Counted from the first letter of the stretch, positions 21,868 to 43,420 are shown. The stretch: 64,000 bases of DNA from an uncultured Thermodesulfobacteriota bacterium (GCA_964594075.1 CAZQKW010000009.1:11912-75911), one strand, 5' to 3'. Notes: a model not told the origin generated them from the sequence alone. A program made the numbers and translations.

Positions 21868-22056
21868 CTTCAGGACTTTCCCAAAAAATGTCTTATTGAT
21901 GGGGAAAAGAAGCGTCTGGGGTTTTTCTCTGCACCAACAATGTGCAAGGTGCTCATTAGTTGGTATCACGACCCCAAACTGTGTCTATCCTGCCGTGGGC
22001 AGGCAGCCAGTTGCGCCGTCGCCACCGGTGAGGTACGGGGGGGGACTGTGGTTACA
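21868..22056 (+). mobile_element. 5'-fragment (~190 nt) of a MITE-like element (copy A), beginning with the terminal repeat TTCAGGACTTT
   Basis: Collinear similarity to 23537..~23700 (e.g. cttcaggactttcccaaaaaatg... / gtctggggtttttctctgcaccaacaatgtgca... / ggcaggcagccag); ends where the dsbA-like gene 3' end begins. Confidence 0.5.
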
Positions 22057-22650
22057 TTAACCAAACTGCTGAATTGTTTCCCGAAAAACGGCGAACGGCT
22101 GGGCACCAACAATCACTTGGTGTTCGTTTATGACAAAGGTTGGCACGCAGCTAACATTATACCTGCGGCCGGCTTCTTGTGCTGCCCTGAGCCGTGGCGC
22201 ATAGCGCCCCTGACGCAGCGCATCCTGCAGTTCCTTAACGTCAAGCCCTGATGCAGCAGCAAGATCCTGTATTACATCGCTTTTGCCAATATCCCGTGCT
22301 TCAGTAAAGTAAGCTTGAAAAACTTTTGCAGAGAAAAAATCATATTTTCCCTGATCGCGCGCATATTCACTTGCTTCCAGTGCCATGCGGGAATTAGAAA
22401 GCACGGTCACCGTACCAAAGGCAATATTATAGGGCGCTCCCAGACGGCGGAGGTTATCATATGTGCGTTCCCAGTCAACTTCGGGAAGCCGCACTGCAAG
22501 AGGAACTCCTTCCGAAGGCGTTTCCGGATGAATTTCAAAGCTGATCCATTCATCTACAACCGGGAATTCCTTTTTCAGCGTATCGACAATACCCTTGCCG
22601 ATGTAGCAGAAGGGTCAAATGTAGTCTGAAAAAATTTTAACTGGTATCAC
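22057..22650 (-). CDS. DsbA/FrnE-like thiol-disulfide oxidoreductase, candidate selenoprotein (in-frame TGA at 22615..22617 read as Sec; GTG start at 22650)
   Basis: Listed ORF 22057..22494 is the C-terminal DsbA-like part; upstream in the same frame is GTG-IPVKIFSDYI-TGA-PFCYIGKG, i.e. the FrnE N-terminus (cf. MKIEIWSDVVCPWCYIGK) with TGA at the first Cys of CxxC; AGGGA before the GTG; tRNA-Sec present in window. Confidence 0.6.
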
Positions 22651-22865
22651 AGTCCCTGCTGTTCCCCGTTTATCTTTTTTCTGTACTTTTTAAAAAGTGC
22701 TTGTAGATTCTTTTCCGAGTCATGGACGGCGTTCTCATGGTCGGTCAACAACAGACGCATAATTTCTTCCGGCGGAATGTCTTTGCACTGGCCTATTAAT
22801 TCCTCAATGCGCTTCTCAATCTTGCGCCACAGGCAACTAACCGCGGTTGTATTCTTTTCATCCAT
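22647..22865 (-). CDS. hypothetical 72-aa protein translationally coupled (GTGA) to the DsbA-like gene
   Basis: Stop TGA overlaps the GTG start of the downstream dsbA-like gene; no recognisable domain. Confidence 0.35.
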   Translation of the reverse strand: MDEKNTTAVSCLWRKIEKRIEELIGQCKDIPPEEIMRLLLTDHENAVHDSEKNLQALFKKYRKKINGEQQGL

Positions 22866-23142
22866 GAGAAATGTTCACCTTTTATCTTTTATTAATGGCA
22901 TTACACAGCTTGTAACATAAAATAAAAAAGATAAAATTTGAAACTAAAAATCCCAAACCCTTGTGTAAACTCAATGGATTTGGGAGGGAGGTATTGTATG
23001 TTTCCTGCGCATCCGCTGCAAACGCAGAAAGATCCCGCTGTTAGGTTTTTATTCAGACAATAAATACCAGAAGGCTTAATAAAAAGATAGAGGGAAAAGA
23101 TTGAGGGGCAGCCATACAAGAATATTGTTGCACATCTTTCTA

Positions 23143-23433
23143 TCAGACTTCTTTTGTTATTTTAAGAAACTCTTCAATTGGTATTGCCTGCATTGATTCT
23201 GCAGATATTCTTCCTGACGAGCATATTTTGAGAATAGTAGCGGTAAAAGCGCTTTTGTCCGGCATCTCCATAATGGTCATCACATCATACTCACCGATTA
23301 AGCCATAAATACAAAGCAATTTCCCACCGTGAGATTCGATAATTTTTTTGACTGCCTCAAATCGTGAGGCAGTGTTGCGAATATCCATTAGACCATCTCT
23401 GGTATATTTCCAGAGGGTAATGTAAACGGGCAT
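23143..23433 (-). CDS. GYD-domain protein
   Basis: ~96 aa with GEYDVMTIMEMPD motif characteristic of the GYD family. Confidence 0.7.
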   Translation of the reverse strand: MPVYITLWKYTRDGLMDIRNTASRFEAVKKIIESHGGKLLCIYGLIGEYDVMTIMEMPDKSAFTATILKICSSGRISAESMQAIPIEEFLKITKEV

Positions 23434-23536
23434 AGCAACTCCCCTCCTTTCCCTTTAGAACTCTGGCCGCCCCCAATCATGCGGCAAACCCAAGTATAAA
23501 GTAGCATATTATGGCGCACAAATTCAAGAGAAGTTT

Positions 23537-23888
23537 AATTCAGGACTTTACCTAAAATGCTTTATTCCCGGGAATAAAGAACGGTCTGGAGGTTTTTATC
23601 AGCCACAACAATGCACGCATCCGCTGGCATCACGACCCCGGCACCGCGCATATTCGGCCCCGTGCAGGCAGCCAGCAGAGTCTTCGTCCCTGGTGATGCA
23701 CGGGGGTCTGGGGACGAAAGAACATAACGGCCCCTGCCGTGTTCCCGGCACGGACGGTTATGTTGTGGTCATAAGAGACCCCTCAGATGCGTGTGAGTTG
23801 ATGTTCCACATAATACCCATTGCGCGTTTGTGTTCTCATGCGGGTTGCCTGAATTTCAGTTTTCATTTTTTGACGAAAGTCCTGAATT
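23537..23888 (+). mobile_element. MITE-like non-autonomous element (copy B, intact) with 13-bp perfect terminal inverted repeats AATTCAGGACTTT / AAAGTCCTGAATT
   Basis: TIRs at 23537..23549 and 23876..23888; internal region shared with 21868..22056 (5' part) and reverse-complement of ~43060..43420 (3' part); internal hairpins 23682..23719 and 23721..23766. Confidence 0.6.
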
Positions 23889-24013
23889 TTGGTTAAAGTG
23901 GATTTTAATATCCATAGTTTTGTGGTAAAGGTTATCAACCATTAATACATAACCACAGAATGTTTTGTTGGCAGCACAACAACCAATCTATCCAGGAATT
24001 TAGGAGTTATGCG

Positions 24014-26032
24014 ATGAATCAAAAACAAGCCCCTATGGAACAGCTCTGTATCAATACTATTCGCACTCTTGCAATGGATGCTGTGCAAAAAGCACATTCA
24101 GGCCACCCTGGCACTGCTATGGCATTAGCACCACTGGCCTATGTATTGTGGATGAAATTTCTCCATTTCAATCCGCGCAATCCGTCCTGGTTCAACCGGG
24201 ACCGGTTTGTGCTCTCATGCGGCCATGCTTCAATACTTAACTATATTATGCTCTTTTTAACAGGCTATGACTTGAGCATTGATGATATTAAAAATTTCCG
24301 CCAATGGGGCAGTAAAACTCCCGGCCATCCGGAATTCGGGGTTACTCCCGGGATAGAAACCACAACGGGGCCGTTAGGGCAGGGCTTAATGAATGCCGTA
24401 GGCATGGCAATGGCAGAAGCACGTCTTGCCGCAATTTTCAACCGTCCTGGATATGAGGTTGTTGACCACTTTACCTATGGATTTTGCAGCGACGGGGACT
24501 TGATGGAAGGCGCTTCCCATGAGGCTGCATCAATTGCCGGCCATTTCGGTTTAGGCAAGCTGATTTTTATCTATGATGATAACCGCATAACCATTGAAGG
24601 AGAGACAGCGCTTACCTATTCTGATGACGTATGCAAGCGGTTTGAAAGTTATCACTGGCACGTGCAGAATATCGGCGATCGGGCAAATGATTTGGCGGCG
24701 CTTTCGGCTGCGCTGATCGAGGCACAAAAAGAACAGAACCGTCCATCGCTTATTATTGTGCGCTCGCACATCGGCTACGGGTCGCCAAACTTCCAGGACA
24801 CCAAGGAGGCACACGGCCAGCCACTGGGTGAAGAAGAGGTAAAACTAACCAAAAAGCATTATGGTTGGCCTGAAGAGGCTTATTTTTATATACCGGAAGG
24901 CGTTCTCCAGCACATGTCTCAACCAGGACAGCGCGGTGCACAGCTTGAAGCTGCATGGCGCGAAACCCTGACTCGCTACCGCCAGGCATATCCCGAGCTT
25001 GCTGAGCAGTTTGAAGCCACGTTGCGTGGCGACCTTCCGGATGGATGGGATCATGAAATGCCGGTGTTTACCCCGGACAGCAAATCAATAGCCACCCGCA
25101 GCGCCTCAGGAAAAGTCCTTAATGCCATAGCAAAAAAAGTTCCTTGGCTTATGGGCGGGAGCGCAGACCTTGGCCCTTCAACGAATACAATTATTTCTAA
25201 CCACGGATATTTTGCCAGAGATAATTATGCCAGCCCAAACATTGCCTGGGGTATTCGGGAGCACGCCATGTGCAGTTGCTCTTCCGGCATGGCGCTGCAT
25301 GGAGGTGTGCGTCCTTACGCAGCCACTTTCTTTGTTTTCACTGACTATGCCCGGCCGGCAATCAGGCTTGCTGCCATGATGCATTTGCCGGTTATTTATG
25401 TAATGACCCATGACTCAATTGGGCTGGGAGAGGATGGCCCCACCCATCAGCCGGTTGAACATCTCGCTTCATTTCGCGCCATGCCCGGCATCTGTGTTAT
25501 CCGGCCGGCTGATGCCAATGAAGTTATCTTTGCCTGGCGTGCAGCAATGGAGCGCACCGGCGGCCCGACTATGCTCGTCCTCAGCAGGCAGAATCTCCCC
25601 ATCCTTGACCGATCAAAACTCTCCGGGGCAGAAGGAGTGCTTAAAGGAGCATACATTTTATCCAAGGAGAATGCGGGGCAACCGGATATTATACTTATCG
25701 CTTCCGGGTCGGAAGTGCATCTGGTACTGCAAGCACAGGAGCAGCTTTTGCTCGATAGGATTAATGCCCGTGTGGTCAGCATGGCAAGCTGGGAGCTATT
25801 TAGAGAACAGCCGCAGAACTACCGCGATGAAGTGCTTCCTCCGAAAATAAAGGCACGGCTTGCAGTAGAAGCAGGATCACCGCTTGGCTGGCGCGACTGG
25901 GTTGGTGATACCGGCGACATCATTGGCATAACACGATTTGGCGCCAGCGCTCCGGCAAAGGAGCTGTTCAGCAAGTATGGCTTCACCGTGGAGCATATTG
26001 TGGCGCGGGCGAAGCAAATTGTTACCAAATGA
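24014..26032 (+). CDS. tkt: transketolase (start at ATG 24014, AGGAG RBS)
   Basis: TPP-binding motifs (GHPE/GHPG..., GDGDLMEG), 673 aa. Confidence 0.9.
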
Positions 26033-26388
26033 AGAGGGGCTGAGGGTATTGTTTAGTGATCCTCTTTGGTTAAAAGGTTTTTTTAAAAGAGATTTTTTCA
26101 GCGCCCCAAAGGATGTCCGTTATTGATTCCTCTCATGCTGCTTAAAAAAGTAAACCTGCGCTATACCTCTCTTTAAACCTTTAGCAAAGCGATTCAAGCC
26201 ACATTAGAGGAAATAGGCTGCCGATTCATAACATAAATTTCAAATATTTTATCTGAGAGTGCATTATAGTTACAAAAACCGATGTCAGCAGCTGCTCGAA
26301 ATAACGGAACTATATTTAACTTATTGAAATTGCTTTATTTATTTTCAAATAAGGCTTAACCTATTGAAATTTAATTATAATTTTTTAT

Positions 26389-26417
26389 TTGACATGCACC
26401 ATAAACTTTCCTATACT
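26389..26417 (+). promoter_or_regulatory. near-consensus sigma70-type promoter TTGACA-N17-TATACT
   Basis: TTGACA 26389..26394, 17-nt spacer, TATACT 26412..26417; ~295 nt upstream of the NlpC/P60 gene. Confidence 0.45.
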
Positions 26418-26600
26418 CCGTCCAGACCGAAGCCGGGGGGCAGCAGTCTACCATTTTTAGTTTTCATGTAGAACACCTTCTCACATTGACCAAACGTCTG
26501 TATATAGTGGCACTTCTGCTACTGAGACCCAGGTTGAGCTAAACAAAAACTAAATGCAACAGCCGTGCACAATGGTTGCTACATCTCTCAGCCATTGAGC

Positions 26601-26642
26601 TTGTGCAAAAATATCCAGAATATGGATACATTTTTGCATAAA
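26601..26642. promoter_or_regulatory. ~17-bp imperfect palindrome TTGTGCAAAAATATCCA-gaa-TATGGATACATTTTTGCATAA; candidate operator just upstream of NlpC/P60 gene
   Basis: Inverted repeat seen directly; cognate regulator unknown. Confidence 0.3.
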
Positions 26643-26712
26643 AATGAAGGATTCAGGCTGTTTAACTGACTGTGGAGAGGCTATGTTTCCATCAGATAAC
26701 AGAAAAAACGAG

Positions 26713-27972
26713 ATGTTTGTTGGTCGCTCAATACATCGCACTATTCATATCATTCTTGTCATAATCATTACGTTCTGCACTCATAGTGTTTACGGAAAAA
26801 CAAGGGTCGCTTCTTCCCGGAAGAAATCGGGCATCCCGGTCTCTATTCAGCACCAGCGATTGCTCCAAAACGAGATGAAGAAATACCTTGGAACGCCCTA
26901 CGAACTGGGCGGTACCGGCTTAGATGGCATTGACTGCTCTGGCTTTGCACGGCGAATTTATAAAGATGTGTATGGCGTCAATCTCCCCCATAATGCGGCG
27001 TCACAGTCAAAATGTCCGCCCTCGGTGCTGAAAAAAGTGCCGTTAGAAAACCTGAATCCGGGCGATCTTATTTTTTTCTCATCTTCCCCTCGAAACAAAC
27101 AGCGGATAACACATGTAGGCCTTTATCTTTCAGATGGCGAATTTATCCATGCTTCCCGTGGAAAAAAAAGTGTCGTTATTTCAAGCCTGAATGAGGGTCA
27201 TTGGCGTTCAAAGATAGTTTCAACCAAAAGGCTATCACGTCTTGATCCGTGGGATGAATGGCAGGCAGAACGTTCAAGCAACATATCTCTGGCAGCTAAT
27301 AAGAAAAATAGGCTTAGACTTTCATATAAGAAAACCGCCAAACCCTCGCCGACTACTGAACCCAGTAAATACGCCGCTATTTATTACCGTGATCAGTTTC
27401 ACGATTTAGACCTTCAATACACCAGAACATTATGGGATAACACCTGGAATGTCACTATGAGCATGTTTCAGCAGCAGGCGCTCATAGGTGATGGCAGGAT
27501 GTTCTCAAACCCTTATCCGGTGCCAACGGGACAACTGGTATGTGACGGGCACTTTACGTCTGCGTACAACCGAGGCTTTAGAATGAGTAGTGACTTTAGA
27601 CCGGTTAACTGGCTTAACATAATGCCTTCAATAACGTATTTTAATCATGGTCCGGCAATACAGAACAGGGAACTCCCCCGCCGCGTCATGGGCGTTGATA
27701 TAGACCTTATTTCTCAAGACAGTACGTGGTCATTGTCCACGGGAGTCCAGTATGCGGATCTCAAGCAGCCCAGCATTTCTGTGGTGAATTACCGTAAAAA
27801 TGATATTAATGAACTCGATATGTCATTAAGATATCGCCAGCAGGTAAACGATCGCCTGAATATAACGGTAATTGGGCAGCGTATTCAACAATCAAGCTCA
27901 GGTATTGAACAGTATCTGGATAATGAACGGACAGATCAAAGCATTTCTTTCCGCCTGAATTTTGTCTACTAA
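26713..27972 (+). CDS. NlpC/P60 (C40) peptidase fused to C-terminal putative outer-membrane beta-barrel (autotransporter-like); start at internal ATG with signal peptide
   Basis: Signal peptide IHIILVIIITFCTHSVYG; NlpC/P60 catalytic Cys (GIDCSGFARRIY) and His (ITHVGLY); C-terminal ~250 aa with alternating hydrophobic pattern ending ...RLNFVY (aromatic C-terminus typical of OMP barrels). Confidence 0.55.
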   Translation: MFVGRSIHRTIHIILVIIITFCTHSVYGKTRVASSRKKSGIPVSIQHQRLLQNEMKKYLGTPYELGGTGLDGIDCSGFARRIYKDVYGVNLPHNAASQSKCPPSVLKKVPLENLNPGDLIFFSSSPRNKQRITHVGLYLSDGEFIHASRGKKSVVISSLNEGHWRSKIVSTKRLSRLDPWDEWQAERSSNISLAANKKNRLRLSYKKTAKPSPTTEPSKYAAIYYRDQFHDLDLQYTRTLWDNTWNVTMSMFQQQALIGDGRMFSNPYPVPTGQLVCDGHFTSAYNRGFRMSSDFRPVNWLNIMPSITYFNHGPAIQNRELPRRVMGVDIDLISQDSTWSLSTGVQYADLKQPSISVVNYRKNDINELDMSLRYRQQVNDRLNITVIGQRIQQSSSGIEQYLDNERTDQSISFRLNFVY

Positions 27973-28145
27973 TAACCTCATTTCACGATTGCATGTGACA
28001 AAGCAATACCACGGAGATGGGCCGCATGCGTGCCAGCCGCCGTGGTTTTGCTGAAATGCTGAACTATCAGGCGTTCCGCACATTACCCGTGAAAATAAGC
28101 CTGCCTGATAAAGACAACCCCCCCTTTGACGCTGCTTACACGGAA

Positions 28146-28161
28146 ACACTATTTCTTGTGA
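28146..28161. promoter_or_regulatory. possible NrdR box ACACTATTTCTTGTGA upstream of nrdJ
   Basis: 13/16 match by eye to the NrdR-box consensus acaCwAtATaTwGtgt; no clear second box at the expected helical spacing. Confidence 0.2.
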
Positions 28162-28367
28162 GACTTGTGTCGCAAAAATCCCTTGTGAAAAAGTAATAAT
28201 TGCAATAATAAATATTGCTATATCCATTAATTGTCGGTTGTGCTGGTTTACCTCGACTTTTCTTCCGTGAGGTGCACATAGTCTATTGAGGTTTGGAGCG
28301 TGCGGGTGCAAGGATTCAGGTATTATGGTGAACATTATACAGCATTAATCTCACCCAAGGGGTAATC

Positions 28368-30485: not shown

Positions 30486-30539
30486 ACACGGTGCCAAACA
30501 ATTTCTTTCCCAATTTATCTGCTGACAGGAGTTTAAACC

Positions 30540-31187: not shown

Positions 31188-31203
31188 AAAGCCAAGATGC
31201 ACA

Positions 31204-32124: not shown

Positions 32125-32133
32125 TGGATCAAT

Positions 32134-33719: not shown

Positions 33720-33867
33720 ATCAAGCCAGTAGCTATATCGCCAAGAAGAGTGTTTGGGGAACGTATTCCCATAAATTCGCAACCTTCTTGGAACATCTCG
33801 CTTATTATCATCGCAGGGGTTCTTTATTTATTTTGCCAATTGCAACCAGCAGGATAAGGATCGCGGC

Positions 33868-34659: not shown

Positions 34660-34665
34660 GGCTTT

Positions 34666-35349: not shown

Positions 35350-35423
35350 CAATGCACATCCTATCCGGAAGGCTTTTTGTTTTAATTGAAGTTTAGGGCG
35401 GTTACCTTGTCTGGGGCGAGGGT

Positions 35424-35870
35424 TTATTTGGCTTTTGTCATATCTCCCATTATTGCTTTTCCCTGCATATTATATAATGTGCCGCTTTTCAGCCTGCCGC
35501 CTTCATAGACAAGGTCAGCTTTTAATTGTCCATTCAAATAATATTCTTTAGTCACGCCCTCCCGTTTGCCATTCCTGTAATGAATCTCTGACCACACCGT
35601 ACCGTTTTCATAATAGCGCTTAAAGACACCCTCAAGCTTACCATTCACATAATGTGCTTCTGTCTTTATTTTATCGCTTGGGTAAAAGGTTCTTTTTATT
35701 TCCTCATTGTGGTCTTCTGCGGCGCACTTAACGGCCAGCACGCAAAAACAGGACATACATGCCGATACAAACAATAGTTTTGAAAAATGACTGATGCCAG
35801 AGAGAACCACGAGTTTTTGTCCAAGGCGTTTAGAGATGCGCTGGGCGAGAGAAGAGAGGAGGTGGGGCAT
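35424..35870 (-). CDS. MORN-repeat (YwqK-like) secreted protein; start at internal MPHLL...
   Basis: Repeated Y-x-NG-x-x-EG motifs (HYVNGKLEGVFKRYYENGTVWSEIHYRNGKREGVTKEYYLNGQLK); signal-like N-terminus. Confidence 0.5.
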   Translation of the reverse strand: MPHLLSSLAQRISKRLGQKLVVLSGISHFSKLLFVSACMSCFCVLAVKCAAEDHNEEIKRTFYPSDKIKTEAHYVNGKLEGVFKRYYENGTVWSEIHYRNGKREGVTKEYYLNGQLKADLVYEGGRLKSGTLYNMQGKAIMGDMTKAK

Positions 35871-35877
35871 AAGACAA

Positions 35878-36471
35878 TCAGGCCTTTGTTTTTGCAGCGG
35901 GCCGGGGAACGGAAATATGCTTGAACTCTTTGCCGTTTCCGCTGTCCCGATTTTGCAGCATTTGCTCCAGGTCATCAAATTTTTTCATATCAAAAGAATG
36001 TTCTAAATACCCCTGTGCCACAAGCATAACTTTTTTGGAGATTGCAATAAGCTGCGGGGCAAGTTTTGATTGCATAATTATCTGAGTTTTTGGCGGAAGA
36101 AAAGAAACAAGGATTAATACCCCAACACAACAAACCGCCATGCCTTTTAAACCACCGAAGATGATCCCTAATATTCTATCGAGCCACCCCAGCTTGATAC
36201 TTTTCACGACCCTTCGTATTCCTTTGCCCACTAAAAAAAGCGGAATATAAATAGCAAAAAACAGGGCGGCGAAACTGATTAATGTGTTTATCTGCTGATT
36301 ATTAAGGTAGGCAGAAAGTTCCTTGCTTATTTCGTCATGAAACGAAAATGCACCATAAAGGCCCAAGCACAGTGCGGCGAGAGAAAAAGCGGCCCTGATG
36401 AGCCCTTTGCTCAAACCAGACACGGCAAAAATGAGACAGATTAAAAGAATGGCAATATCCAAGGAATTCAT
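35878..36471 (-). CDS. cvpA: CvpA family membrane protein
   Basis: Four TM helices and family-typical N-terminus MNSLDIAILLICLIFAVSGLSKGLIR. Confidence 0.7.
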   Translation of the reverse strand: MNSLDIAILLICLIFAVSGLSKGLIRAAFSLAALCLGLYGAFSFHDEISKELSAYLNNQQINTLISFAALFFAIYIPLFLVGKGIRRVVKSIKLGWLDRILGIIFGGLKGMAVCCVGVLILVSFLPPKTQIIMQSKLAPQLIAISKKVMLVAQGYLEHSFDMKKFDDLEQMLQNRDSGNGKEFKHISVPRPAAKTKA

Positions 36472-36975
36472 ATGCCGATGCAGGGAATAGGAACAGCACC
36501 AGAAATTTAAAAATATTCAAACAGGGTTGAATTAGATTAAAATTACATTAATTGTATTTTTTCATATATTTTTTTTTAGTCAAGATTTATTTTAGTTTCA
36601 GGTTGCTGCTCAAAAATATTGCTTTCAGCACCCGTGAGTTCATTCTCAACATGCTAACTTCACAAAAGTTTTTAGCATCGCCATTAAACTCATATAAATA
36701 AAATGGCAAGGTAAGGTAAAACGCAACGTTTTGAATAGTAAAATTGCTCACAAGTTTATTATATTTTAAAATAAAAAACGAATTTAAAAAATATAAAATA
36801 GCTCTTGCAATTATTTGTCTGAAGTAATATTTTATTCACATTGATCCTGCATTATATTCATTTATTGGTATAAATTTCTTCTGCGGATTGTATAAACGTA
36901 TAGGTATAGAATTTGTTGGTATGGATGCCAGAGGTAAGATACCAATAGGTTTTCAGGTTTCTGCATTCATAAAAG

Positions 36976-37020
36976 CTCCTATCAAATAGTAACTAGTGCA
37001 CGGTAGGAGTTTTTTGTTTT
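36976..37020 (+). terminator. terminator-like hairpin + T-run ~20 nt upstream of the start codon of the 37040 gene (possible attenuator / end of an unannotated sRNA)
   Basis: CTCCTATC-N18-GGTAGGAG (8 bp, one G-U) followed by TTTTTTGTTTT. Confidence 0.4.
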
Positions 37021-37039
37021 AATAGGGAGGGGTTGTCGC

Positions 37040-37420
37040 ATGAAAGAAAGAAAATTATTTTTCAAAATAACTCTGGTGCTTTCATTTATCGCAGGCTTTG
37101 CATTAATGTTATACGATGCCGGAGAACGCTACACGATTTTTAGAGATAGTCTGGCACGGGAAATAGTGATAAAGAAAACCAATAATGATTTTGCAGATAA
37201 CGCTGGCTATATAGATGCAGCAGCATCAGGAAAGAACTCGGCAACGGAGGTCTTGCAGGAACTCTTGAACAAAGAAAAACAGGCAATAGGGTTCATGGAT
37301 GTAATCAAGAATACCAGGTTTGGCATATTTATGGGGACCTTTTTCCTATTGGGTTTTGCCCAGATCTGGATGCTGTATTTTCTCATTATGCTGGGATTAA
37401 CCAGCAAAAAAAGACGCTGA
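37040..37420 (+). CDS. hypothetical small membrane protein
   Basis: GGGAGGGG RBS; N- and C-terminal TM helices; AT-rich codon usage. Confidence 0.4.
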   Translation: MKERKLFFKITLVLSFIAGFALMLYDAGERYTIFRDSLAREIVIKKTNNDFADNAGYIDAAASGKNSATEVLQELLNKEKQAIGFMDVIKNTRFGIFMGTFFLLGFAQIWMLYFLIMLGLTSKKRR

Positions 37421-37442
37421 ACAGCGGGGCGTTGCACTGCCT

Positions 37443-37973
37443 ATGAATCTCAAAATAAAGATTTCAGCACTCAATAGTGAAATATCTCTGGTAGACAACA
37501 AATTTCAACTTTACTTTTTAGGCGAAGAAAGAACGCCGCCCATAAAAGAATTTGAGCGACTAAAGCAGCAGGTGAGTATTCTGCAAAATGAAAAACCCCC
37601 TTCTGTGAGCGGTCAATTTCTCACCAACAGTTTTTTGCGTCGCTTTGCAGCCTATCGAAACAAATGGGAGCGGTTGCTAAGAGATATTGAAGAAGGGAGA
37701 AAAAAGCCCAGCAAGCATTTCTTCGTAAAGGCGCCCCAAAAAGTATTGCCCCCGACCGCGCTGCCAGATGAGGTGGTAAAGGAAATTGATTTGGTGGTTG
37801 CCCAGTTTGCAGAATACACAGAGAAACATTCAGGAAAAAAATTAAATAGAAAAACTTTAAAGCACCAGCTTGCAGAAAAAGCCCGCGATATGTATGTTCA
37901 GTATGGCGACAGCTATTATTTGGATCTTTATTATGATGACACCGGCATTGAAATTCGAACCATTAAACGGTAG
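37443..37973 (+). CDS. hypothetical protein
   Basis: 176-aa ORF, no recognisable motif. Confidence 0.4.
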   Translation: MNLKIKISALNSEISLVDNKFQLYFLGEERTPPIKEFERLKQQVSILQNEKPPSVSGQFLTNSFLRRFAAYRNKWERLLRDIEEGRKKPSKHFFVKAPQKVLPPTALPDEVVKEIDLVVAQFAEYTEKHSGKKLNRKTLKHQLAEKARDMYVQYGDSYYLDLYYDDTGIEIRTIKR

Positions 37974-38002
37974 ATAAGATGCTCATATAATCCAAATGTT
38001 TT

Positions 38003-38428
38003 TTGAGGACAGAGGAACAAGAAATGAAAAAAATCTTATTATTGACCGCAATCGTAATACTCACAGGTTGCAGCACAAAAAGGCCGGTGCTGTATCCCAA
38101 TGAACACCTGCAAAAAGTTGGACAGGCACAGGCGCAGCTTGATATAGAAGAGTGCTGCAGAAGGGCTGATGCATATATTAAGTCAGAGCCCGGCAAAGAA
38201 ATCGCTAAAGATGCAGCTCAAGCAGGGACAGTCGGCGCTGCAACCGGCGCAGCTGTTGGGGCAGTCTATGGAAAGGCAGGGCGGGGCGCTGCCGCAGGTG
38301 CCGCAGGTGGAGCTGTTGCTGCAACAACCAGCGGCATTTTCAGGTCAAAAGAACCAAGCCCGGTTTATCAAAATTTTGTAAATCGCTGTCTGCGCGAAAA
38401 GGGGTATGAACCCATCGGATGGCAATAA
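38003..38428 (+). CDS. glycine-zipper lipoprotein
   Basis: Lipobox LTGC; Gly/Ala zipper GTVGAATGAAVGAVYGKAGRGAAAGAAGGAVAATT. Confidence 0.5.
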   Translation: MRTEEQEMKKILLLTAIVILTGCSTKRPVLYPNEHLQKVGQAQAQLDIEECCRRADAYIKSEPGKEIAKDAAQAGTVGAATGAAVGAVYGKAGRGAAAGAAGGAVAATTSGIFRSKEPSPVYQNFVNRCLREKGYEPIGWQ

Positions 38429-38488
38429 CCGTGTGTTTAACGCGAATATTTGGATCGGAAGACATTACGGCACTGGTTTGCAGTTTAT

Positions 38489-39208
38489 TTACGCGCCGAA
38501 TAAAAATTCCCGCAAATACCGCTCGCTCCATGCTAAGCCAAAATGATGCTGCAATGGCGTACTGCCAGGATCATAGGCAATATAATCCTCCCGATATTGT
38601 TTCAGATATTCATTGCGTCTCGTGCGCAACGCGGCATCCGTAAGCGGCGTAGCTTTGTGAATGCACAAACAAAACACCTGCAGATAATCTTTAAACGCGG
38701 CTTCTATTTGAGGAAGATACTGAGGATCGCACCACCGGTACAGAGCATATCCTGAATCATATTTTTTAGCCCAATCATGGACTTCAGAACGTCCGCCTTC
38801 TGTTTTAGGAATCCATGCGTATTTTTCAGAAATGCTTTTTAGTGGCGCAAGATATTTTGCTGTGTATTCCTTGTCTTTTGCAACAGGATGAAGATCAAGA
38901 ACCGCTATTAAAAATTTGCTTGCGCTGGCAAAGGTAAAGCCAAAAACCGGAAAATCGTAGTCAGTGCCCGGTTGTATGCTGCCAAAATGCACTATCATGG
39001 AACCGGCAAAATGCATGGCACCCATGCGTATGCCGCTTGTTTTGGGACAGGCAAAAAACTCATTTTTAATAAAAATAGTTTTATCTCCAGAATCCGCATA
39101 CTTTACAGCAAACACCGGTTCAAGCGGCAATGGCTTTAACGGAAAAGCTTTCCCCATTTCATCTTTAAGGATCTCATTAAACCGTATTGTAACTGTTTTT
39201 TCTTCCAT
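38489..39208 (-). CDS. ferredoxin-dependent bilin reductase (PcyA/PebA/HY2 family) homolog
   Basis: KTIFIKNEFFACPKTSGIRMGAMHF...FPVFGFTFASASKFLIAVLDLHP aligns with PcyA [20 protein letters not shown]...LPMFGCDLVGGRGQISAAIADLSP; C-terminal HHFGLAWSERYLREFLF matches FDBR motif FG..W.ERY...LF. Confidence 0.6.
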   Translation of the reverse strand: MEEKTVTIRFNEILKDEMGKAFPLKPLPLEPVFAVKYADSGDKTIFIKNEFFACPKTSGIRMGAMHFAGSMIVHFGSIQPGTDYDFPVFGFTFASASKFLIAVLDLHPVAKDKEYTAKYLAPLKSISEKYAWIPKTEGGRSEVHDWAKKYDSGYALYRWCDPQYLPQIEAAFKDYLQVFCLCIHKATPLTDAALRTRRNEYLKQYREDYIAYDPGSTPLQHHFGLAWSERYLREFLFGA

Positions 39209-39685
39209 ACTGATTTCCTTCTTTAAAGACCTGAAATTAATTTAACACCTCTACCATACAACTCTTTTTTTTGTTTAAGCTCGCCTTAACCCGCATTCAA
39301 TGACCTGCCAGCCAGTACCTATCAGATTTCTCCCCTGATATTGTCCCGAGGATAAAAACCGTAGATGCGATCTGTGACATAAGCTCCCTGCGAGGATCAT
39401 TTGACTCGACAAACCCTACCATTCCCGACACGATAAAGCCAGCAATATTTCCCGCCGTTATCTGTATGCCCAGTTTTTCAAAAAGCAAAAAATAAATAAA
39501 TTTTGGGAGAGATCTTTTAAAACCCGCTGTGTAACGCAGACCCGTTTCCCTGTGACTTCACATGAACAGAGATACATGATAATTAAGAAGTGCAGGTCTG
39601 AAAAGGATTGGGTGCACTGACAGACCGCCATAACTAAGAAGATGAATATGTTGTGAATATCGAAATGCCTGATGGGACATACTGA

Positions 39686-40282
39686 ATGGATACGCTTGCT
39701 CATGGACTCTGGGCCACTGCTGCTGTTAAAACAAACAATATGTTTTTTCGTATAAAAATCCGCACCGCATGGTTTGTCTTTTGGGGCGTGTTGCCGGATT
39801 TATTTTCTTTTACACCAGTAGTGGTGTGGCTGTTATGGCAGGTTATTGTGCAGGGCATTCCTTTTTCAGAAGTGCCGAGGCCAGAATTGCTGCCCCCTGA
39901 AATTCGAAAGACTGTTCCCGTGTTTCGGCTGACCAATGGCCTGTACCATCTTAGCCATAGTCTGATAATTTTTACGGCAATATTTTTGCTGATATGGGCT
40001 ATTCGCTACTATTGTTTAAAGTCTCTGCGAGCGACACAGATAAGCCACACCGAGCTAAATCGGCTGCGGCCTCCCTGGGAACTCAGCGGATGGATACTGC
40101 ACATCCTGATTGACATACCAACGCATACCCGAGGGTTGTATCCCACGCCGTTTCTCTGGCCGCTTTCAGATTTTACCGTTGACGGCATCTCCTGGGGCAG
40201 ACCGTGGTTCCTGGCGATAAATTATTCCTCTCTGCTTATGGTGTTTTTGCTGCTGCGGATGAAATCCATGAAAAAACAATGA
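39686..40282 (+). CDS. YdjM/DUF457-like membrane-bound metal-dependent hydrolase
   Basis: LPDLFSF, YHLSHSLIIF and LHILIDIPTHTRGLYPTPFLWPL segments parallel E. coli YdjM (LPDIDHP, GFTHSLLAVF, LSHILADMLTPAGVPLLWP). Confidence 0.5.
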   Translation: MDTLAHGLWATAAVKTNNMFFRIKIRTAWFVFWGVLPDLFSFTPVVVWLLWQVIVQGIPFSEVPRPELLPPEIRKTVPVFRLTNGLYHLSHSLIIFTAIFLLIWAIRYYCLKSLRATQISHTELNRLRPPWELSGWILHILIDIPTHTRGLYPTPFLWPLSDFTVDGISWGRPWFLAINYSSLLMVFLLLRMKSMKKQ

Positions 40283-40327
40283 ACGGGCATTGAGAAGCGG
40301 GGACGATATACGCCGGACAGGTAATTC

Positions 40328-41248
40328 TTAGCCTACTATATCCCGAAGCGCCATCTCTGCATCCGGGAAGTTAAAGCTAAACCCTGCTTCAAGCAGGCGT
40401 TTGGGCTGCACCCGTTGGCCTGCCAGAATCAACTCTTCTGCCATCTGGCCAAACATGATGCGCAGGACAAAACCAGGAACTGACAACCACGAAGGCCTGC
40501 CCATAGCAGACCCGACCGCACGGAAAAAATCCCGAGCGCGCAGAGGATGCGGTGCACAGAGATTAAACGGGCCTTCAAGCCTTTCCTGTTCAAGCAGAAA
40601 ACAGACCGCTTCCACCTCATCTTTTATATGAATCCAGGAAAGCCACTGTTGTCCATTTCCCATGTGGCCACCCATAAACAGGCGAAACGGCAGCATCACC
40701 CGCGAGAGAAATCCGCCATCCCGGCCAAGCACAATACCGGTCCTTATAATCACATGACGCACGCCCTGATCTGCGACAATTTTTGTTGATGCCTCCCACT
40801 GTTGGGCAACGTCTGCTAAAAAACCGCTTCCAGGGAGTGAATTTTCATTTACCACTTCATCGCCGCGATTTCCGTAATACCCGATACCTGATGCTTGAAT
40901 AACCACCCGGGGCTTATGGTGTGCCTGCTCAACCGCTGCAACTATTGCTTTTCCAGCATCAAGCCTGCTCTGAAGTATTTTTTCTTTTTGCGCCTGTGTC
41001 CATCTTCCTGCAGCTATATTTTCTCCGGTCAAATTTATAATTCCCCGTGCACCGTCCGCATATTGAGACCAGCCCGCAGTGCTTCGCGCATCCCAGCCGA
41101 CCACGGTGACGCGATCTTCCCATGCCACGGATGCTGTCGCAGGATTTCGGGAAAGAGCCACTACCGCGTAGCCGCGTGCCATTAATACCCTGCAGAGCAT
41201 TCTCCCGATAAAACCGGTTGCACCACTCACAATAACAGTTTGCGCCAT
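40328..41248 (-). CDS. TIGR01777 (YfcH-like) NAD-dependent epimerase family protein
   Basis: VSGATGFIG Rossmann motif, ~306 aa with DUF1731-like C-terminus; GGAGC RBS. Confidence 0.7.
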   Translation of the reverse strand: MAQTVIVSGATGFIGRMLCRVLMARGYAVVALSRNPATASVAWEDRVTVVGWDARSTAGWSQYADGARGIINLTGENIAAGRWTQAQKEKILQSRLDAGKAIVAAVEQAHHKPRVVIQASGIGYYGNRGDEVVNENSLPGSGFLADVAQQWEASTKIVADQGVRHVIIRTGIVLGRDGGFLSRVMLPFRLFMGGHMGNGQQWLSWIHIKDEVEAVCFLLEQERLEGPFNLCAPHPLRARDFFRAVGSAMGRPSWLSVPGFVLRIMFGQMAEELILAGQRVQPKRLLEAGFSFNFPDAEMALRDIVG

Positions 41249-41308
41249 GTGGCTCCTTTCAAAGTATAGCGCTGGTCAGCATATATTCGGTAACGCATTT
41301 TCCTCTCA

Positions 41309-41905
41309 TCAGGGAACAGAAGCGCCGTCTGAGATCAGGAGCATGATTCCCTTACGCACCATCATAACACCGATTGCTGCTAAAATGAGGCTTGCGAGCT
41401 TTGATATTGTTTTGGTGCCTGAGGTGCCCAGGACGCGGTTTATTGAGCCTGCCATCCAGAACACTATGCCGGCAATAATGATATTGACTATTGTTGCAGA
41501 AACTGTCGGGATGAGTCCATATTGGTTAATAAGCAGAATTGTCGTGGTAAGAACGCCGGGTCCTACGATGAGCGGAACTCCGAGGGGCACTGCCCCCACC
41601 TCTTCCGGCTCCATCTGCAACCGGCGTTTTTCAGTTGAGATCAAATCGCTGAGTGAAATAACAAAAAGCAAGGTGCCTCCTGCAATCATAAAATCCGCAA
41701 CAGTTATACCGAGTAGCATGAGAATTCCCTTGCCAATAAAAAGGAAAACCAGGGCGACCATCATGGCGGTAATAACCGATTGAAAAATAATTCGTCTGGT
41801 TCGTGAACGTGTTAATCCCTGAGTAAGCCCCATGAATAAGGGCAGAATTCCCAGTGCATCTACGGCAACAAACAGGGGCACAAAACAGAGCCAGAAATTA
41901 TTCAT
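41309..41905 (-). CDS. MarC-family (UPF0056) integral membrane protein
   Basis: Six predicted TM helices; family-like N-terminus FVPLFVAVDALGILPLF. Confidence 0.7.
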   Translation of the reverse strand: MNNFWLCFVPLFVAVDALGILPLFMGLTQGLTRSRTRRIIFQSVITAMMVALVFLFIGKGILMLLGITVADFMIAGGTLLFVISLSDLISTEKRRLQMEPEEVGAVPLGVPLIVGPGVLTTTILLINQYGLIPTVSATIVNIIIAGIVFWMAGSINRVLGTSGTKTISKLASLILAAIGVMMVRKGIMLLISDGASVP

Positions 41906-42059
41906 AAACGCGGCGATAACTTTAGGTACGATACAAAGCGCCGGGCTTTCAGCAGCTCGTTTTATAGGTTTTTAAGCCCTAAGCGCTCGGATACTTTTTC
42001 TATTGTGCGGATTACTTTCAAGAGACAGCGAAAGGTTTTGTATTTCATGCCGGTTTCCC

Positions 42060-43031
42060 CTAAATGGGGTCACCCGGTTTCCACTCATAAATAAGAGCAG
42101 GATTATTTATATACCTCATCAGATGCTCATGAAAAGGGAAAGCCGCACCGGCATCAAAGGCGCGGTGGTCTATGGTGCCCATAACAGACATAACGCTGCG
42201 CGGAACTATTTCTCCGCCAACTACCAGGGGCGCTACATGCAGATCACCTATACCTATGAAAAATACTTCGGGTGGAACTATTACCGTAACGGTCTGAATA
42301 CCGGGAAGCATCATGCCGATGTTTGCAACGGTGCAGGTTGCGCCCATGATGTCCTCCGGCTGGAGTTTTTCCGTTTCCGGCACATTTGCTGTTGCGGAGT
42401 CAGGTTTTATGCCGGTTATAAAACGGGCTCGCAGAAAGATCAAGAGAGAGTACAGGCCTCTAAAATCAACCTGCCGAATGGCCGTCCAGAGGAGCTTTTT
42501 CGCGGCCTTGTAGTAGAGTTCATCCTGGTTTGTACGACGAGCCTTGCGTGCCAGAATGCGCATTTCCTGCGCCACTGTTTCCAGGTCTTTGAGATGAGGA
42601 TTGTGAAGGACGGGCCGCACAACGCCAACCGGTGTATTGACCGTAAAACTGAGATTGATGTCTTCAGCTTCATACAACGTGCCGCCATGGCTCAGCGGGC
42701 GATAGTCAAGAAAACTGTTCAGCGCCGGCACGTGGTATAAACAATGTGCAACAGCCTTGATGAAAAATGCAGAAAAATTTTTTCGAATCGCACGCTGCAA
42801 CAGCTTCTTGTCCGAATTTTCAGCCTGTTCTGCAGCCGCTTCTTGTGATGAAGCCTTTGCATATTCCACCAGCGGTGTTACATCAAGCTGAAGAATCATC
42901 GCTGCATGGGGGATTTTCTTGGCAGATTCAGACAGGAGATGAGCGACACTTTCCCGAAGCAGGCTAAATCTCCGTGCTTGGCGCACTTTAACATTTTGCA
43001 GTTGATAGGCTATTTTATACGGTTTAAACAT
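42060..43031 (-). CDS. stand-alone 2-oxoacid dehydrogenase E2 / CAT-like acyltransferase catalytic domain protein
   Basis: Catalytic motif TIDHRAFDAGAAFPFHEHL (cf. E2 DHRVIDGA); no lipoyl or E3-binding domains. Confidence 0.55.
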   Translation of the reverse strand: MFKPYKIAYQLQNVKVRQARRFSLLRESVAHLLSESAKKIPHAAMILQLDVTPLVEYAKASSQEAAAEQAENSDKKLLQRAIRKNFSAFFIKAVAHCLYHVPALNSFLDYRPLSHGGTLYEAEDINLSFTVNTPVGVVRPVLHNPHLKDLETVAQEMRILARKARRTNQDELYYKAAKKLLWTAIRQVDFRGLYSLLIFLRARFITGIKPDSATANVPETEKLQPEDIMGATCTVANIGMMLPGIQTVTVIVPPEVFFIGIGDLHVAPLVVGGEIVPRSVMSVMGTIDHRAFDAGAAFPFHEHLMRYINNPALIYEWKPGDPI

Positions 43032-43059
43032 GAAAAAGTCCGTTTCAAAAAACGCGATA

Positions 43060-43420
43060 TCGTCTCAATATCTAAATAGGAAAAATAAACCTGTCAAGGA
43101 AAAATCCAGAAGGACGTTCCCCAAAATGTTCCCATGAAATTCAGGTAAACTACATGAGAACCCAAAAAATCAATCACATAAAAGGGAAATGAAAAGCACC
43201 GGCACATGGGGATTTTTATCGCCACAACACAACCGTCCGTGCCAGGAACACGGCAGGTGCCGTTATGTTCTTTCGTCACCAGCCCCCGTGCATCACCGGT
43301 GACGAAGACTCTGCTGGCTGTCTGCACATTGCAAAATATTTTTGTGGGAATGTTTTAAAAAACCAGCACGGGTATTTTTTAAATACTTAATGATACATTA
43401 AATAATAAGTGATTCATGCA
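43060..43420 (-). mobile_element. degenerate MITE-like element (copy C), reverse orientation, ending ~30-60 nt upstream of the E2-like gene
   Basis: Reverse complement of ~43215..43335 is ~90% identical (by eye, ~110 nt) to 23671..23780; flanking parts align with indels; TIRs degenerate. Confidence 0.45.

What the first reader, a model, noticed from the sequence alone, without database searches (positions are those of the whole stretch)
21868..43420. Family of MITE-like elements (~350 nt, 13-bp perfect TIRs) with three copies in 64 kb
Copy B (23537..23888) is bounded by perfect inverted repeats AATTCAGGACTTT ... AAAGTCCTGAATT with TT on both flanks. Copy A (21868..~22056) shares the 5' terminus TTCAGGACTTT and about 190 nt of collinear sequence, then stops at the 3' end of the dsbA-like gene. 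Copy C (~43060..43420, opposite orientation) shares the 3' ~250 nt, including a ~110-nt block that is ~90% identical by eye, with degenerate termini. The element has no coding capacity for a transposase, so it is non-autonomous. Copies B and C each end 60-120 nt upstream of a gene in the same orientation (tkt; E2-like acyltransferase), so they may supply promoter or leader sequence.
Basis: seen in the sequence. Interest (0 to 1): 0.75.

Follow-up and report, generated by a model that had tools for sequence, protein, structure and literature searches.

The report
Old palindromic intergenic repeat family (MITE-like)
The window holds three clear and two degenerate copies of a ~350-base non-coding palindromic repeat that looks like a worn-out miniature transposon of an uncultured sulfate-reducer-like bacterium: a new family of an ordinary kind, with no sign that it is a riboswitch or that it supplies promoters.

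Summary
B (23537-23888), A (21868-22056) and C (43106-43453, minus strand, full length) are homologous and non-coding. There is also a footprint-like relic at 21130-21147 and a possible distant relative at 17114-17396.

The family has an imperfect ~22-nt terminal inverted repeat, consensus TTCAGGACGTTCCCCAAAAAATG. It has long mirrored arms and a G+C-rich core.

Short flanking direct repeats occur at two sites: 7 bp around C, and 10-12 bp, perfect, around the B-site copy in a relative. Related genomes carry full, internally deleted, replaced or absent copies in the same spacers.

Between strains of ~98% identity the copies change as fast as synonymous sites or faster, so they are not under constraint now.

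Nothing matches Rfam, and no reading frame is conserved. Whole-element alignment gives no consensus RNA fold.

The promoters of the neighbouring genes lie outside the element.

Best reading: an old, now probably immobile, MITE-like repeat family. It decays by internal deletion and is partly homogenised by gene conversion between B and C.

Two things stay unexplained. The core is better conserved between species than the termini, and its hairpins persist. No transposase partner was found, and genome-wide copy number could not be measured.

The parts
23537..23888 (+). Copy B, full length. Between the putative target duplications it runs 23541-23884 (CAGGAC...GTCCTG, 344 nt, 53% G+C). The perfect 13-bp inverted repeat is at 23537-23549 / 23876-23888. 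A subterminal hairpin CTTTATT-CCCGGG-AATAAAG lies at 23560-23579. The conserved core is about 23590-23775.
   Evidence: The orthologous copy in a strain of ~98% identity is 95.5% identical.
23531..23540 (.). Left half of the decayed target-site duplication of B (AAGTTTAATT). The right half is AATTTTGGTT at 23885-23894 (7 of 10 identical).
   Evidence: The homologous flanks are perfect in L021 (AAGATTGTCTAA on both sides) and 9 of 11 in L019. These were read from sequence.
21868..22056 (+). Copy A, truncated. It keeps the 5' terminus, the 5' arm and half of the core, has an internal deletion, and lacks the 3' arm. It ends at the stop codon of the dsbA-like gene.
   Evidence: nhmmer gives E = 7.6e-40 with a profile that includes A itself, and E = 2.1e-25 with a profile built without A. 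The ortholog L014 is 95.8% identical.
43106..43453 (-). Copy C, full length (348 nt, 41% G+C). The core 43208-43339 is 86-88% identical to B. The 5' third (43340-43453) is A+T-rich and diverged. The 3' terminus on the + strand reads CCAGAAGGACGTTCCCCAAAATG at 43106-43128.
43099..43105 (.). 7-bp direct repeat GAAAAAT flanking C. The second copy is at 43454-43460.
   Evidence: ATTTTT is also present on both sides of the C-site element in L025 (read from sequence).
21130..21147 (+). Relic at site X, between the SIS-domain gene and rpoZ: AGCGGCCTTTGGCCTGAA, two terminus-like halves with nothing between them. Relatives L019 (7148-7490) and L030 (about 2995-3300) hold full-length copies at this site.
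   Evidence: Weak: it rests on flank homology and on resemblance to the terminus.
17114..17396 (+). Possible distant relative, Y, between the LigT-like and CinA genes. It has terminus-like ends and mirrored GGTTTTTT / AAAAAC arm motifs but a different centre. Its orientation is uncertain.
   Evidence: With a profile built without Y only marginal hits remain: E = 2e-4, reverse strand, and E = 0.01 in L019.
23143..23433 (-). GYD-domain gene, divergent from tkt. Its upstream region abuts B's 5' end.
24014..26032 (+). Transketolase gene, 125 nt downstream of B. The conserved flank TAAAGTGGATTTTAATATC (23893-23911) lies outside the element.
42060..43031 (-). E2-like acyltransferase gene (2-oxoacid_dh catalytic domain), 74 nt downstream of C. 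Its conserved TTGACA...TATTTAGATA flank lies outside the element.

Best explanation
These are copies of one family of small non-autonomous DNA repeats of the MITE type. Each is about 345-350 bp, non-coding and richer in G+C than its surroundings. Each is built as a long imperfect palindrome: an imperfect ~22-nt terminal inverted repeat (consensus TTCAGGACGTTCCCCAAAAAATG), mirrored arms of ~100 nt, and a central core.

**Inferred mechanism.**
- A transposase supplied in trans, not seen here, once recognised the ends.
- It inserted copies into A+T-rich DNA a few bases upstream of the -35 box of outward-facing promoters, duplicating about 7-12 bp of target.
- In this lineage the copies are old and probably immobile.
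- They drift at the neutral rate or faster, and lose their interiors by deletion. That leaves terminus-only footprints at 21130-21147 here and at L019 9797-9893.
- They are partly homogenised by gene conversion. This explains why the B and C cores are 86-88% identical while the B-site copies of two species are about 56-62% identical.

**Shown.** Homology of the copies, inverted termini, palindromic symmetry, lack of coding capacity, flanking direct repeats at two sites, different element states at the same sites in relatives, and lack of present-day constraint.

**Inferred.** Transposition as the copying mechanism, the target preference, gene conversion, and immobility.
For: **Homology and ends.**
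- The copies are homologous.
- The terminal consensus is found only at element ends, in the window and in relatives.
- Elements match their own family profile in reverse orientation, E = 5e-7 to 5e-6, so they are long imperfect palindromes.

**Non-coding.**
- No reading frame is shared between copies.
- A protein search with the open frame found only the ortholog of C among 5.8 billion clusters.
- Rfam gives nothing at gathering or E-value thresholds.

**Flanking direct repeats.**
- GAAAAAT on both sides of C.
- A perfect 10-12 bp repeat around the B-site copy in L021, and 9 of 11 in L019.

**Element state differs at the same sites.**
- B site: full in the window and L021; a 97-nt remnant keeping both termini in L019; a different palindromic element Z in L031 and L020; no element in L024 or L030.
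- X site: full in L019 and L030; a relic in the window.
- L020 and L021 are 99.6% identical downstream yet carry Z versus B.

**Present-day neutrality.**
- Elements: 46 substitutions in 1176 sites (3.9%).
- Non-element spacers: 2.0%.
- dS 0.031.
- The substitutions hit the conserved motifs.

**No covariation between arms.** Whole-element RNAalifold gives 0 pairs, and the arms show no self-over-non-self pairing advantage.

**Fit to the definition.** Size, terminal repeats, waning direct repeats, intergenic location and stable folds match the published description of prokaryotic MITEs (PMC10969869). They also resemble Chunjie of Geobacter: 21-bp TIRs, 9-bp direct repeats, fold energy of -98 to -130 kcal/mol (PMC3184786). 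B folds at -126 / -130 kcal/mol.
Against: - No transposase or full-length IS with matching ends was found in the 80-kb contig or in any fetched locus.
- Genome and metagenome scans with the core pattern returned only orthologous copies and chance hits.
- No clean empty site was recovered. L024 and L030 lack the B element, but their right flank is too diverged to align.
- The direct-repeat lengths disagree: 7 bp against 10-12 bp. They are absent at the A, X and Y sites.
- A perfect 10-12-bp repeat in L021 is hard to reconcile with one ancient insertion at dS above 1.
- Copies occupy the same spacers across relatives, so recent movement is not shown.
- The core is more conserved between species than the termini (0.6-0.77 against 0.44-0.46), the reverse of the usual MITE pattern.
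- Core hairpins stay 91% paired across copies from four genomes (0 of 500 shuffles).
- B and A are G+C-rich (53%), not A+T-rich.
- Four of the five sites cluster within 7 kb. No further copy lies in the other ~73 kb of the contig.
Confidence: 0.6

Rival explanations
1. The element, or at least its ~180-nt G+C-rich core, is a functional structured nucleic acid. It could be an RNA transcribed from the B-orientation strand, or a folded single DNA strand. Selection would keep it, either for the host (for example a small RNA or an insulator/terminator module next to promoters) or for the element's own propagation. The palindromic arms would be secondary.
For: - The core is better conserved than the termini between species whose synonymous sites are saturated, with blocks such as TCACGACCCCGGCACC identical 16 of 16 between the window and L021.
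- Core-only consensus folding is better on the + strand (-20.0 against -11.2 kcal/mol).
- 91% of cells are paired, and 4 pairs change on both sides, with 0 of 500 shuffles reaching either value.
- The helices hold many G-U and very few A-C cells.
- One C:G to A:U change between B and C has a mismatched intermediate in the sister strain.
- The subterminal hairpin keeps its stem while its loop is replaced.
- All clear copies have their 5' end next to an outward-facing promoter (read from sequence).
Against: - Between close strains, B and C change faster than synonymous sites, and the changes fall in the conserved motifs and helices, e.g. GGGGGTC to GGTGGTC, CCTGCC to CCTTCC, GCAGGC to GCAGAC.
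- The interior is deleted without loss of the flanking genes in L019, in the window (X site) and in L025.
- No Rfam family matches.
- Whole-element alignment gives no consensus structure.
- No conserved promoter or terminator defines a transcript.
- Only about four independent sequences exist. The shuffle control is known to be exceeded by unconstrained related sequences in 5-25% of trials (tool note).
- The tested structure was derived from the same alignment.
Confidence: 0.2
2. This is a single-strand-DNA-mobilised palindromic element, moved by an HUH/Y1 enzyme and analogous to REPINs or to IS200/IS605-derived palindrome-associated elements. Its orientation would be tied to the direction of replication.
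For: - Copies left of the gene-strand and GC-skew switch near 23.5-26 kb are all in + orientation, and C, to the right of it, is in - orientation.
- The elements are long hairpin-forming palindromes with subterminal hairpins.
Against: - That class has no terminal inverted repeats and makes no target duplication. Here both are present.
- Only three to five copies carry the orientation argument, and the orientation of Y is uncertain.
- No HUH transposase gene is in any locus.
- The size is three times that of REPINs.
- DnaA boxes are not enriched, so the skew switch cannot be called an origin.
Confidence: 0.07
3. There was no transposition. The copies arose by local duplication and gene conversion of a spacer module within one chromosomal neighbourhood.
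For: - Four of the five sites lie within 7 kb, in the same orientation.
- Paralogs within the window are more alike (A-B 0.70; B-C core 0.88) than the B-site copies of different species (0.56).
- No copy lies elsewhere in the 80-kb contig.
Against: - C lies 20 kb away in inverted orientation, with its own 7-bp flanking repeat.
- Similarity stops at defined inverted termini rather than running into the flanks.
- The flanking genes are unrelated.
- Different repeat families (Z, W) occupy the same spacers in relatives, which points to insertion hot spots.
Confidence: 0.1

Closest known systems
Chunjie MITE of Geobacter uraniireducens Rf4 (as summarised in PMC3184786 and PMC10969869)
   Same: Both come from a delta-proteobacterial-type host. 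Both are non-coding and intergenic, with ~21-nt terminal inverted repeats and ~9-bp direct repeats. Both have very stable predicted folds (-98 to -130 kcal/mol; B is -126 / -130). Both families include many size-variant and partial copies that lack termini.
   Different: - Chunjie is 178-235 bp, A+T-rich and recently active, with tens of copies in one genome.
- This family is ~350 bp with a G+C-rich conserved core, and shows no sign of recent activity.
- Its copy number is unknown.
- Sequence similarity to Chunjie could not be tested, because the original paper is not held.
ERIC / Correia-type palindromic intergenic repeats (Enterobacteriaceae, Neisseria)
   Same: All are imperfect palindromes in spacers next to promoters or gene ends. 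Their copies are shared at orthologous sites between species, are variably deleted, and can affect transcripts through hairpins.
   Different: - ERIC and Correia are 100-200 bp, with TA target duplications and well conserved termini.
- Here the element is ~350 bp, the flanking repeats are 7-12 bp, and the interior is better conserved than the termini.
- No promoter, IHF site or RNase site was demonstrated here.
ISAs1- or IS4-family insertion sequences as possible parents. This is recalled from memory of published IS family tables (ends CAGGG, direct repeats of 8-10 bp) and is a lead only.
   Same: The element ends start CAGGAC or CAGGCT, and the flanking repeats are 7-12 bp.
   Different: No transposase gene or full-length IS was seen. 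A five-base resemblance has no statistical weight.
Structured non-coding RNA families in Rfam, including the transposon-associated HEARO (recalled from memory as an Rfam family)
   Same: It is G+C-rich, strongly folding and non-coding, lies in spacers, and its core hairpins are retained across copies.
   Different: No Rfam family matches, even at E up to 10. There is no consistent gene association. The interior is dispensable in relatives.

Membership tests
Prokaryotic MITE (definition in PMC10969869, section 2.1) | Total length under about 500 bp | tested here: met
   B is 344-352 nt, C is 348 nt, and full copies in relatives are 326-359 nt.
Prokaryotic MITE | No transposase or other conserved coding capacity | tested here: met
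   The open frames differ between A, B and C. The protein search found only the ortholog of C.
Prokaryotic MITE | Terminal inverted repeats of about 4-30 bp | tested here: met
   B has a perfect 13 bp. An imperfect ~22-nt consensus recurs at the ends of copies in five genomes and nowhere else.
Prokaryotic MITE | Flanking direct repeats (target-site duplication), which wane with age | tested here: inconclusive
   - C: 7 of 7, GAAAAAT.
- B site: 10-12 perfect in L021, 9 of 11 in L019, 7 of 10 in the window.
- None at A, X or Y.
- The lengths are inconsistent.
Prokaryotic MITE | Multiple dispersed copies in one genome | tested here: inconclusive
   There are three clear and two degenerate copies in 80 kb, four of them within 7 kb.
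Prokaryotic MITE | Mobility: presence/absence between related genomes, with an identifiable empty site | tested here: inconclusive
   The state of the element differs between relatives at the B, X, A and C sites. No unambiguous empty site could be aligned.
Prokaryotic MITE | A cognate autonomous IS/transposase with matching ends | not testable with these tools
   None occurs in the contig or the fetched loci. There is no match in plasmids or viral contigs.
Prokaryotic MITE | A+T-rich element inserted in A+T-rich intergenic DNA | tested here: inconclusive
   The spacers are A+T-rich (37.5% G+C), but B and A are 53% G+C and C is 41%.
Cis-regulatory RNA / riboswitch or small-RNA gene family | A conserved secondary structure supported by covariation | tested here: inconclusive
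   - The whole element gives 0 consensus pairs, and the arms do not co-vary.
- The core alone gives 28 pairs, 91% paired, with 4 pairs changed on both sides and 0 of 500 shuffles reaching that. This rests on only about 4 independent sequences.
Cis-regulatory RNA / riboswitch or small-RNA gene family | Purifying selection on the sequence or structure | tested here: not met
   Between close strains the elements differ by 3.9% (B 4.5%, C 6.2%), against dS 0.031 and 2.0% in other spacers. The changes disrupt the motifs.
Cis-regulatory RNA / riboswitch or small-RNA gene family | Consistent position in the leader of a related set of genes, or a match to a described family | tested here: not met
   The neighbouring genes are unrelated (rpoZ, dsbA-like, GYD, tkt, acyltransferase, SDR). 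The conserved promoter-like flanks lie outside the element. There are no Rfam hits.
REP/REPIN or IS200/IS605-derived palindromic elements | No terminal inverted repeats and no target duplication; short (REP 20-40 nt, REPIN about 100 nt); an associated HUH transposase | tested here: not met
   Terminal inverted repeats and flanking repeats are present. The size is ~350 nt. No such gene is in the loci.

The most novel reading that the evidence does not exclude
The element may not be a plain IS-derived MITE. It could be a mobile or formerly mobile non-coding element whose conserved, hairpin-rich G+C core is itself the functional part. That core carries the motifs CACGACCCCGGCACC, GGGCAGGCAGC, GGGGTCTGG and CCTGCCGTG, with complementary segments interleaved as a-b-a'-b'. 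It might act as a structured RNA or as folded single-stranded DNA, needed for propagation or co-opted by the host next to promoters. This would explain why the interior outlasts the termini across genomes whose synonymous sites are saturated.
Probability: 0.12. Interest if true: 0.7.

Novelty: new member of a known kind. Interest (0 to 1): 0.3.

Why it matters
**Practical value.** Spacers at 17.1, 21.1, 21.9, 23.5 and 43.1 kb should be masked as repeat-derived. That stops them being mistaken for riboswitches, small-RNA genes or small ORFs. One such ORF has already been called on the ortholog of copy C in public data (P0001).

**Assemblies.** Several public metagenome contigs end in or near these spacers. 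Whether the repeats cause the breaks was not tested.

**Biology.** The same few promoter-proximal spacers collect different palindromic repeats (this family, Z and W). In an uncultured Desulfobacterota-like clade these repeats are turned over by internal deletion, replacement and gene conversion.

**Open question.** Only the unexplained conservation of the core would lift the finding above the ordinary.

Tried and rejected
**Searches that gave nothing useful**
- Rfam at gathering and permissive thresholds: only tRNA-Sec elsewhere in the window.
- The core pattern in one genome per species (185,579 species): four chance-level hits in unrelated phyla. The source species is apparently not represented.
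- The same pattern in JGI metagenomes: only orthologs of A and C, plus chance hits.
- A conserved-motif pattern in viral contigs: 0 hits.
- blastn of B against 72,556 plasmids: no match.
- A protein search with the ORF spanning B and C: only the C ortholog.
- Literature searches for deltaproteobacterial MITEs and for the assembly accessions: nothing useful. The Chunjie paper is not held.

**Ideas considered and dropped**
- *Coding small protein.* B is open for 128 codons, but the frame is broken in A and C.
- *A's apparent 3' terminus inside the dsbA-like gene.* AAACTGCTGAATT at 22063-22075 matches B's end at 11 of 13. However, the C-terminus has the same length, 5 residues after VF(R/Q)(E/D)T, in L019, which carries a diverged copy A, and in L031, where the spacer is nearly empty. 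The match is therefore probably coincidental.
- *Replication origin at the skew switch.* DnaA boxes are not enriched: 16 observed against 14 expected.
- *Covariation between the two arms.* There is no consistent self-over-non-self advantage.
- *Y as a firm family member.* Its significance disappears when Y is left out of the profile.

Full report
**1. The observation**

Reading the sequence and detecting repeats confirm the three copies.

- B carries the perfect 13-bp inverted repeat AATTCAGGACTTT / AAAGTCCTGAATT at 23537-23549 and 23876-23888.
- A (from 21868) is collinear with the first ~190 nt of B at 70% identity. It stops at the stop codon of the dsbA-like gene.
- C, on the minus strand, shares 80 nt at 88%, 57 nt at 86% and 32 nt at 84% with B.
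- A 39-column pattern common to all three has no match in 100 shuffles.

One correction is needed. A perfect 13-mer inverted repeat within 450 nt is expected about 0.9 times in a window of this size and was seen once. The repeat is convincing only because it coincides with the ends of the family.

**2. Not coding, and not a known RNA**

- B is open for 128 codons in one frame. The frame that is open in A has stops in B, and a 1-nt indel shifts the frame in C.
- A profile of the B and C ORFs, searched against 5.8 billion protein clusters, found only the ortholog of C in a sister strain.
- Rfam gives only a tRNA-Sec elsewhere at gathering thresholds. It gives nothing credible at E up to 10 over 21600-24100.

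**3. Where the window comes from, and what relatives were available**

The window is positions 11987-75986 of an 83,878-nt JGI metagenome contig. Transketolase homologs place it among Desulfobacterota/Thermodesulfobacteriota-like bacteria, with nothing named closer than 72-76%.

Relatives were therefore reached through neighbouring proteins:

| Relative | Loci | Distance from the window |
|---|---|---|
| Sister strain | L001-L006, L014, L015, L017 | ~98% nt identity, dS 0.031 |
| Species | L019 | GYD dS 0.5 |
| Species | L021, L020, L031 | tkt dS 1.1 (measured on L021) |
| Species | L024, L030 | tkt dS 2.8 (measured on L024; L030 by tkt protein identity, 76%) |
| C locus | L025, L026, L027 | 93%, 85%, 77% acyltransferase identity |

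The gene order SIS gene - rpoZ - dsbA-like - 72-aa gene - GYD - tkt is conserved throughout.

**4. Anatomy of the family**

Aligning copies from the window and from relatives gives one architecture.

- **Termini.** An imperfect terminal inverted repeat of ~22 nt, consensus TTCAGGACGTTCCCCAAAAAATG. Fuzzy searches find it only at element ends.
- **Subterminal hairpin.** Its stem survives while its loop is replaced between strains (CCCGGG to GCTAAG).
- **Mirrored arms.** CTGGRGGTTTTTATC-GCCACAACA on the left and TGTTGTGGC-GAAAAACCCC on the right.
- **Core.** G+C-rich, with the motifs CACGACCCCGGCACC, GGGCAGGCAGC, GGGGTCTGG and CCTGCCGTG.

The elements hit their own profile in reverse orientation at E = 5e-7 to 5e-6. 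The whole unit is therefore a long imperfect palindrome. B folds at -126 kcal/mol on the + strand and -130 on the - strand (z = -3.1 and -4.7).

With the profile, C is full length (43106-43453) and only its 5' third has diverged. The window also holds two weaker members:

- A footprint-like relic at 21130-21147, at a site where L019 and L030 have full copies.
- A possible distant relative at 17114-17396. Its significance vanishes when it is left out of the profile.

No further copy exists in the remaining ~16 kb of the contig.

**5. Signs of insertion**

- C is flanked by the 7-bp direct repeat GAAAAAT at 43099-43105 and 43454-43460.
- The B-site copy in L021 is flanked by a perfect 10-12-bp repeat, (AA)GATTGTCTAA. 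The repeat is 9 of 11 in L019 and 7 of 10 in the window. This implies that the outer AATT of B's perfect inverted repeat is really target sequence.
- The insertion points are A+T-rich and lie about 10-14 nt upstream of the -35 box of an outward-facing promoter. This was read from sequence. The SIS promoter TTGACA-17-TAAGAT is also reported.

The state of the element differs between genomes at the same sites:

| Site | State |
|---|---|
| B | Full in the window and L021; a 97-nt remnant keeping both termini in L019; a different palindromic element (Z) in L031 and L020; no element in L024 or L030 |
| X | Full in L019 and L030; relic in the window |
| A | Truncated in the window; diverged in L019; nearly empty in L031 |
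| C | Arms only, without the core, in L025 |

L020 and L021 are 99.6% identical downstream of the element, yet carry Z versus B.

None of this gives a clean empty site, and the direct-repeat lengths are inconsistent. Mobility is therefore inferred, not shown.

**6. Present-day constraint**

Between the window and the sister strain:

| Region | Substitutions per site |
|---|---|
| Elements overall (46 in 1176 sites) | 3.9% |
| B | 4.5% |
| C | 6.2% |
| A | 2.6% |
| Non-element spacers | 2.0% |
| Synonymous sites (dS) | 0.031 |

The changes fall inside the conserved motifs and predicted stems. So the copies in this species are not under purifying selection. B and C even look accelerated, with a cluster of four changes in one hairpin loop. 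That pattern fits template switching or conversion.

**7. Concerted evolution**

Paralogs within the window are more alike (A-B 0.70; B-C core 0.86-0.88) than copies at the same site in different species (B window against L021, 0.56; X in L019 against L030, 0.51).

At the C locus, L025 keeps the arms. It lacks exactly the two segments that are nearly identical between B and C in the window. Gene conversion from a B-like copy into C is the simplest account. Deletion in L025 plus conversion is the alternative.

**8. Is it a structured RNA?**

*Against:*
- Whole-element RNAalifold over nine copies gives no consensus pair.
- The 5' arm of a copy pairs no better with its own 3' arm than with other copies' arms.
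- The interiors are dispensable in relatives.
- There is no constraint between strains.

*For:*
- The core is better conserved between species than the termini (0.6-0.77 against 0.44-0.46).
- Core-only consensus folding prefers the + strand (-20.0 against -11.2 kcal/mol).
- The predicted helices are 91% paired, and four pairs change on both sides (0 of 500 shuffles for each).
- There are many G-U and almost no A-C cells.

With about four independent sequences, and a structure derived from the same alignment, this is suggestive only. It is the one feature that a plain MITE does not explain.

**9. Promoter or leader supply**

The conserved promoter-like sequences lie outside the element. TTGACAGGTTTATTTTTCCTATTTAGATA precedes the acyltransferase and TAAAGTGGATTTTAATATC precedes tkt. 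Both persist in relatives in which the element is gutted, replaced or core-less.

B does create one weak hybrid match, TTGACG-18-TAAAGT, across its 3' junction. The TTGACG part is not conserved in other copies.

**10. Verdict**

The best-supported reading is a new family of an ordinary kind. It is an old MITE-like palindromic repeat with no visible parent IS, sitting in promoter-proximal spacers. It decays by internal deletion and is partly homogenised by conversion. It matches the published definition of prokaryotic MITEs in size, terminal repeats, waning direct repeats, intergenic position and stable folds (PMC10969869). Its nearest described analogue in a related phylum is Chunjie of Geobacter (PMC3184786).

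Confidence is about 0.6. Copy number, a parent transposase and a clean empty site are all missing, and the conserved core remains unexplained.

Noticed in passing
window 22057-22650 (-), TGA at 22615-22617: The dsbA/FrnE-like gene has an in-frame TGA in the position of the first cysteine of the redox motif (..KIFSDYI-U-PFCYIGKG, UxxC). The same is true of the orthologs in L019 and L031. It is therefore a selenoprotein, and the ORF list truncates it to 145 aa. No SECIS element was looked for.
   Followed up: partly
window 46410-46503 (+): A tRNA-Sec gene (Rfam RF01852, 74 bits), consistent with the selenoprotein above.
   Followed up: no
window ~23500-26000: Gene strand and GC skew both switch here. 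Genes are almost all on the minus strand, with negative skew, to the left. They are mostly on the plus strand, with positive skew, to the right. Copy B sits at the divergent GYD/tkt junction. DnaA boxes are not enriched (16 against 14 expected), so an origin cannot be claimed.
   Followed up: partly
L031 2774-2947; L020 151-280; L021 1285-1665; L020 336-714: Two other small palindromic repeat families occupy the same tkt-upstream spacer in relatives. Z has ends CAGGCTGKTSAAAAACA. W is 381 nt with ends CCACAGAG / CTCTGTGG. L020 and L021 are 99.6% identical downstream but carry Z versus B. The spacer is a hot spot for such elements.
   Followed up: partly
window 23567-23571 and the whole of B and C: Between strains of ~98% identity, B and C differ by 4.5% and 6.2%. 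That is above synonymous divergence (0.031) and other spacers (2.0%). Four substitutions cluster in one hairpin loop (CCCGGG to GCTAAG) while the stem is kept.
   Followed up: partly
window 23510-23893 (+), frame 0: B is free of stop codons for 128 codons in one frame, with an internal GTG-initiated ORF of 67 aa at 23693-23896. A 109-aa ORF has been called on the ortholog of copy C in public data (P0001). The frame is not conserved in A or C, so this is a spurious ORF.
   Followed up: yes
L005/L006 (ends at window 23687 and 22176), L001-L004 (ends 22097-22176), L014 (end 22074), L025 (starts inside the C spacer): Several independent metagenome contigs end in or near these spacers. This suggests assembly breaks at repeats or strain variation.
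   Followed up: no
window 22063-22075: AAACTGCTGAATT, inside the last codons of the dsbA-like gene, matches B's 3' terminus at 11 of 13. The C-terminus has the same length in L019, which carries a diverged copy A, and in L031, where the spacer is nearly empty. The match is probably coincidental.
   Followed up: yes
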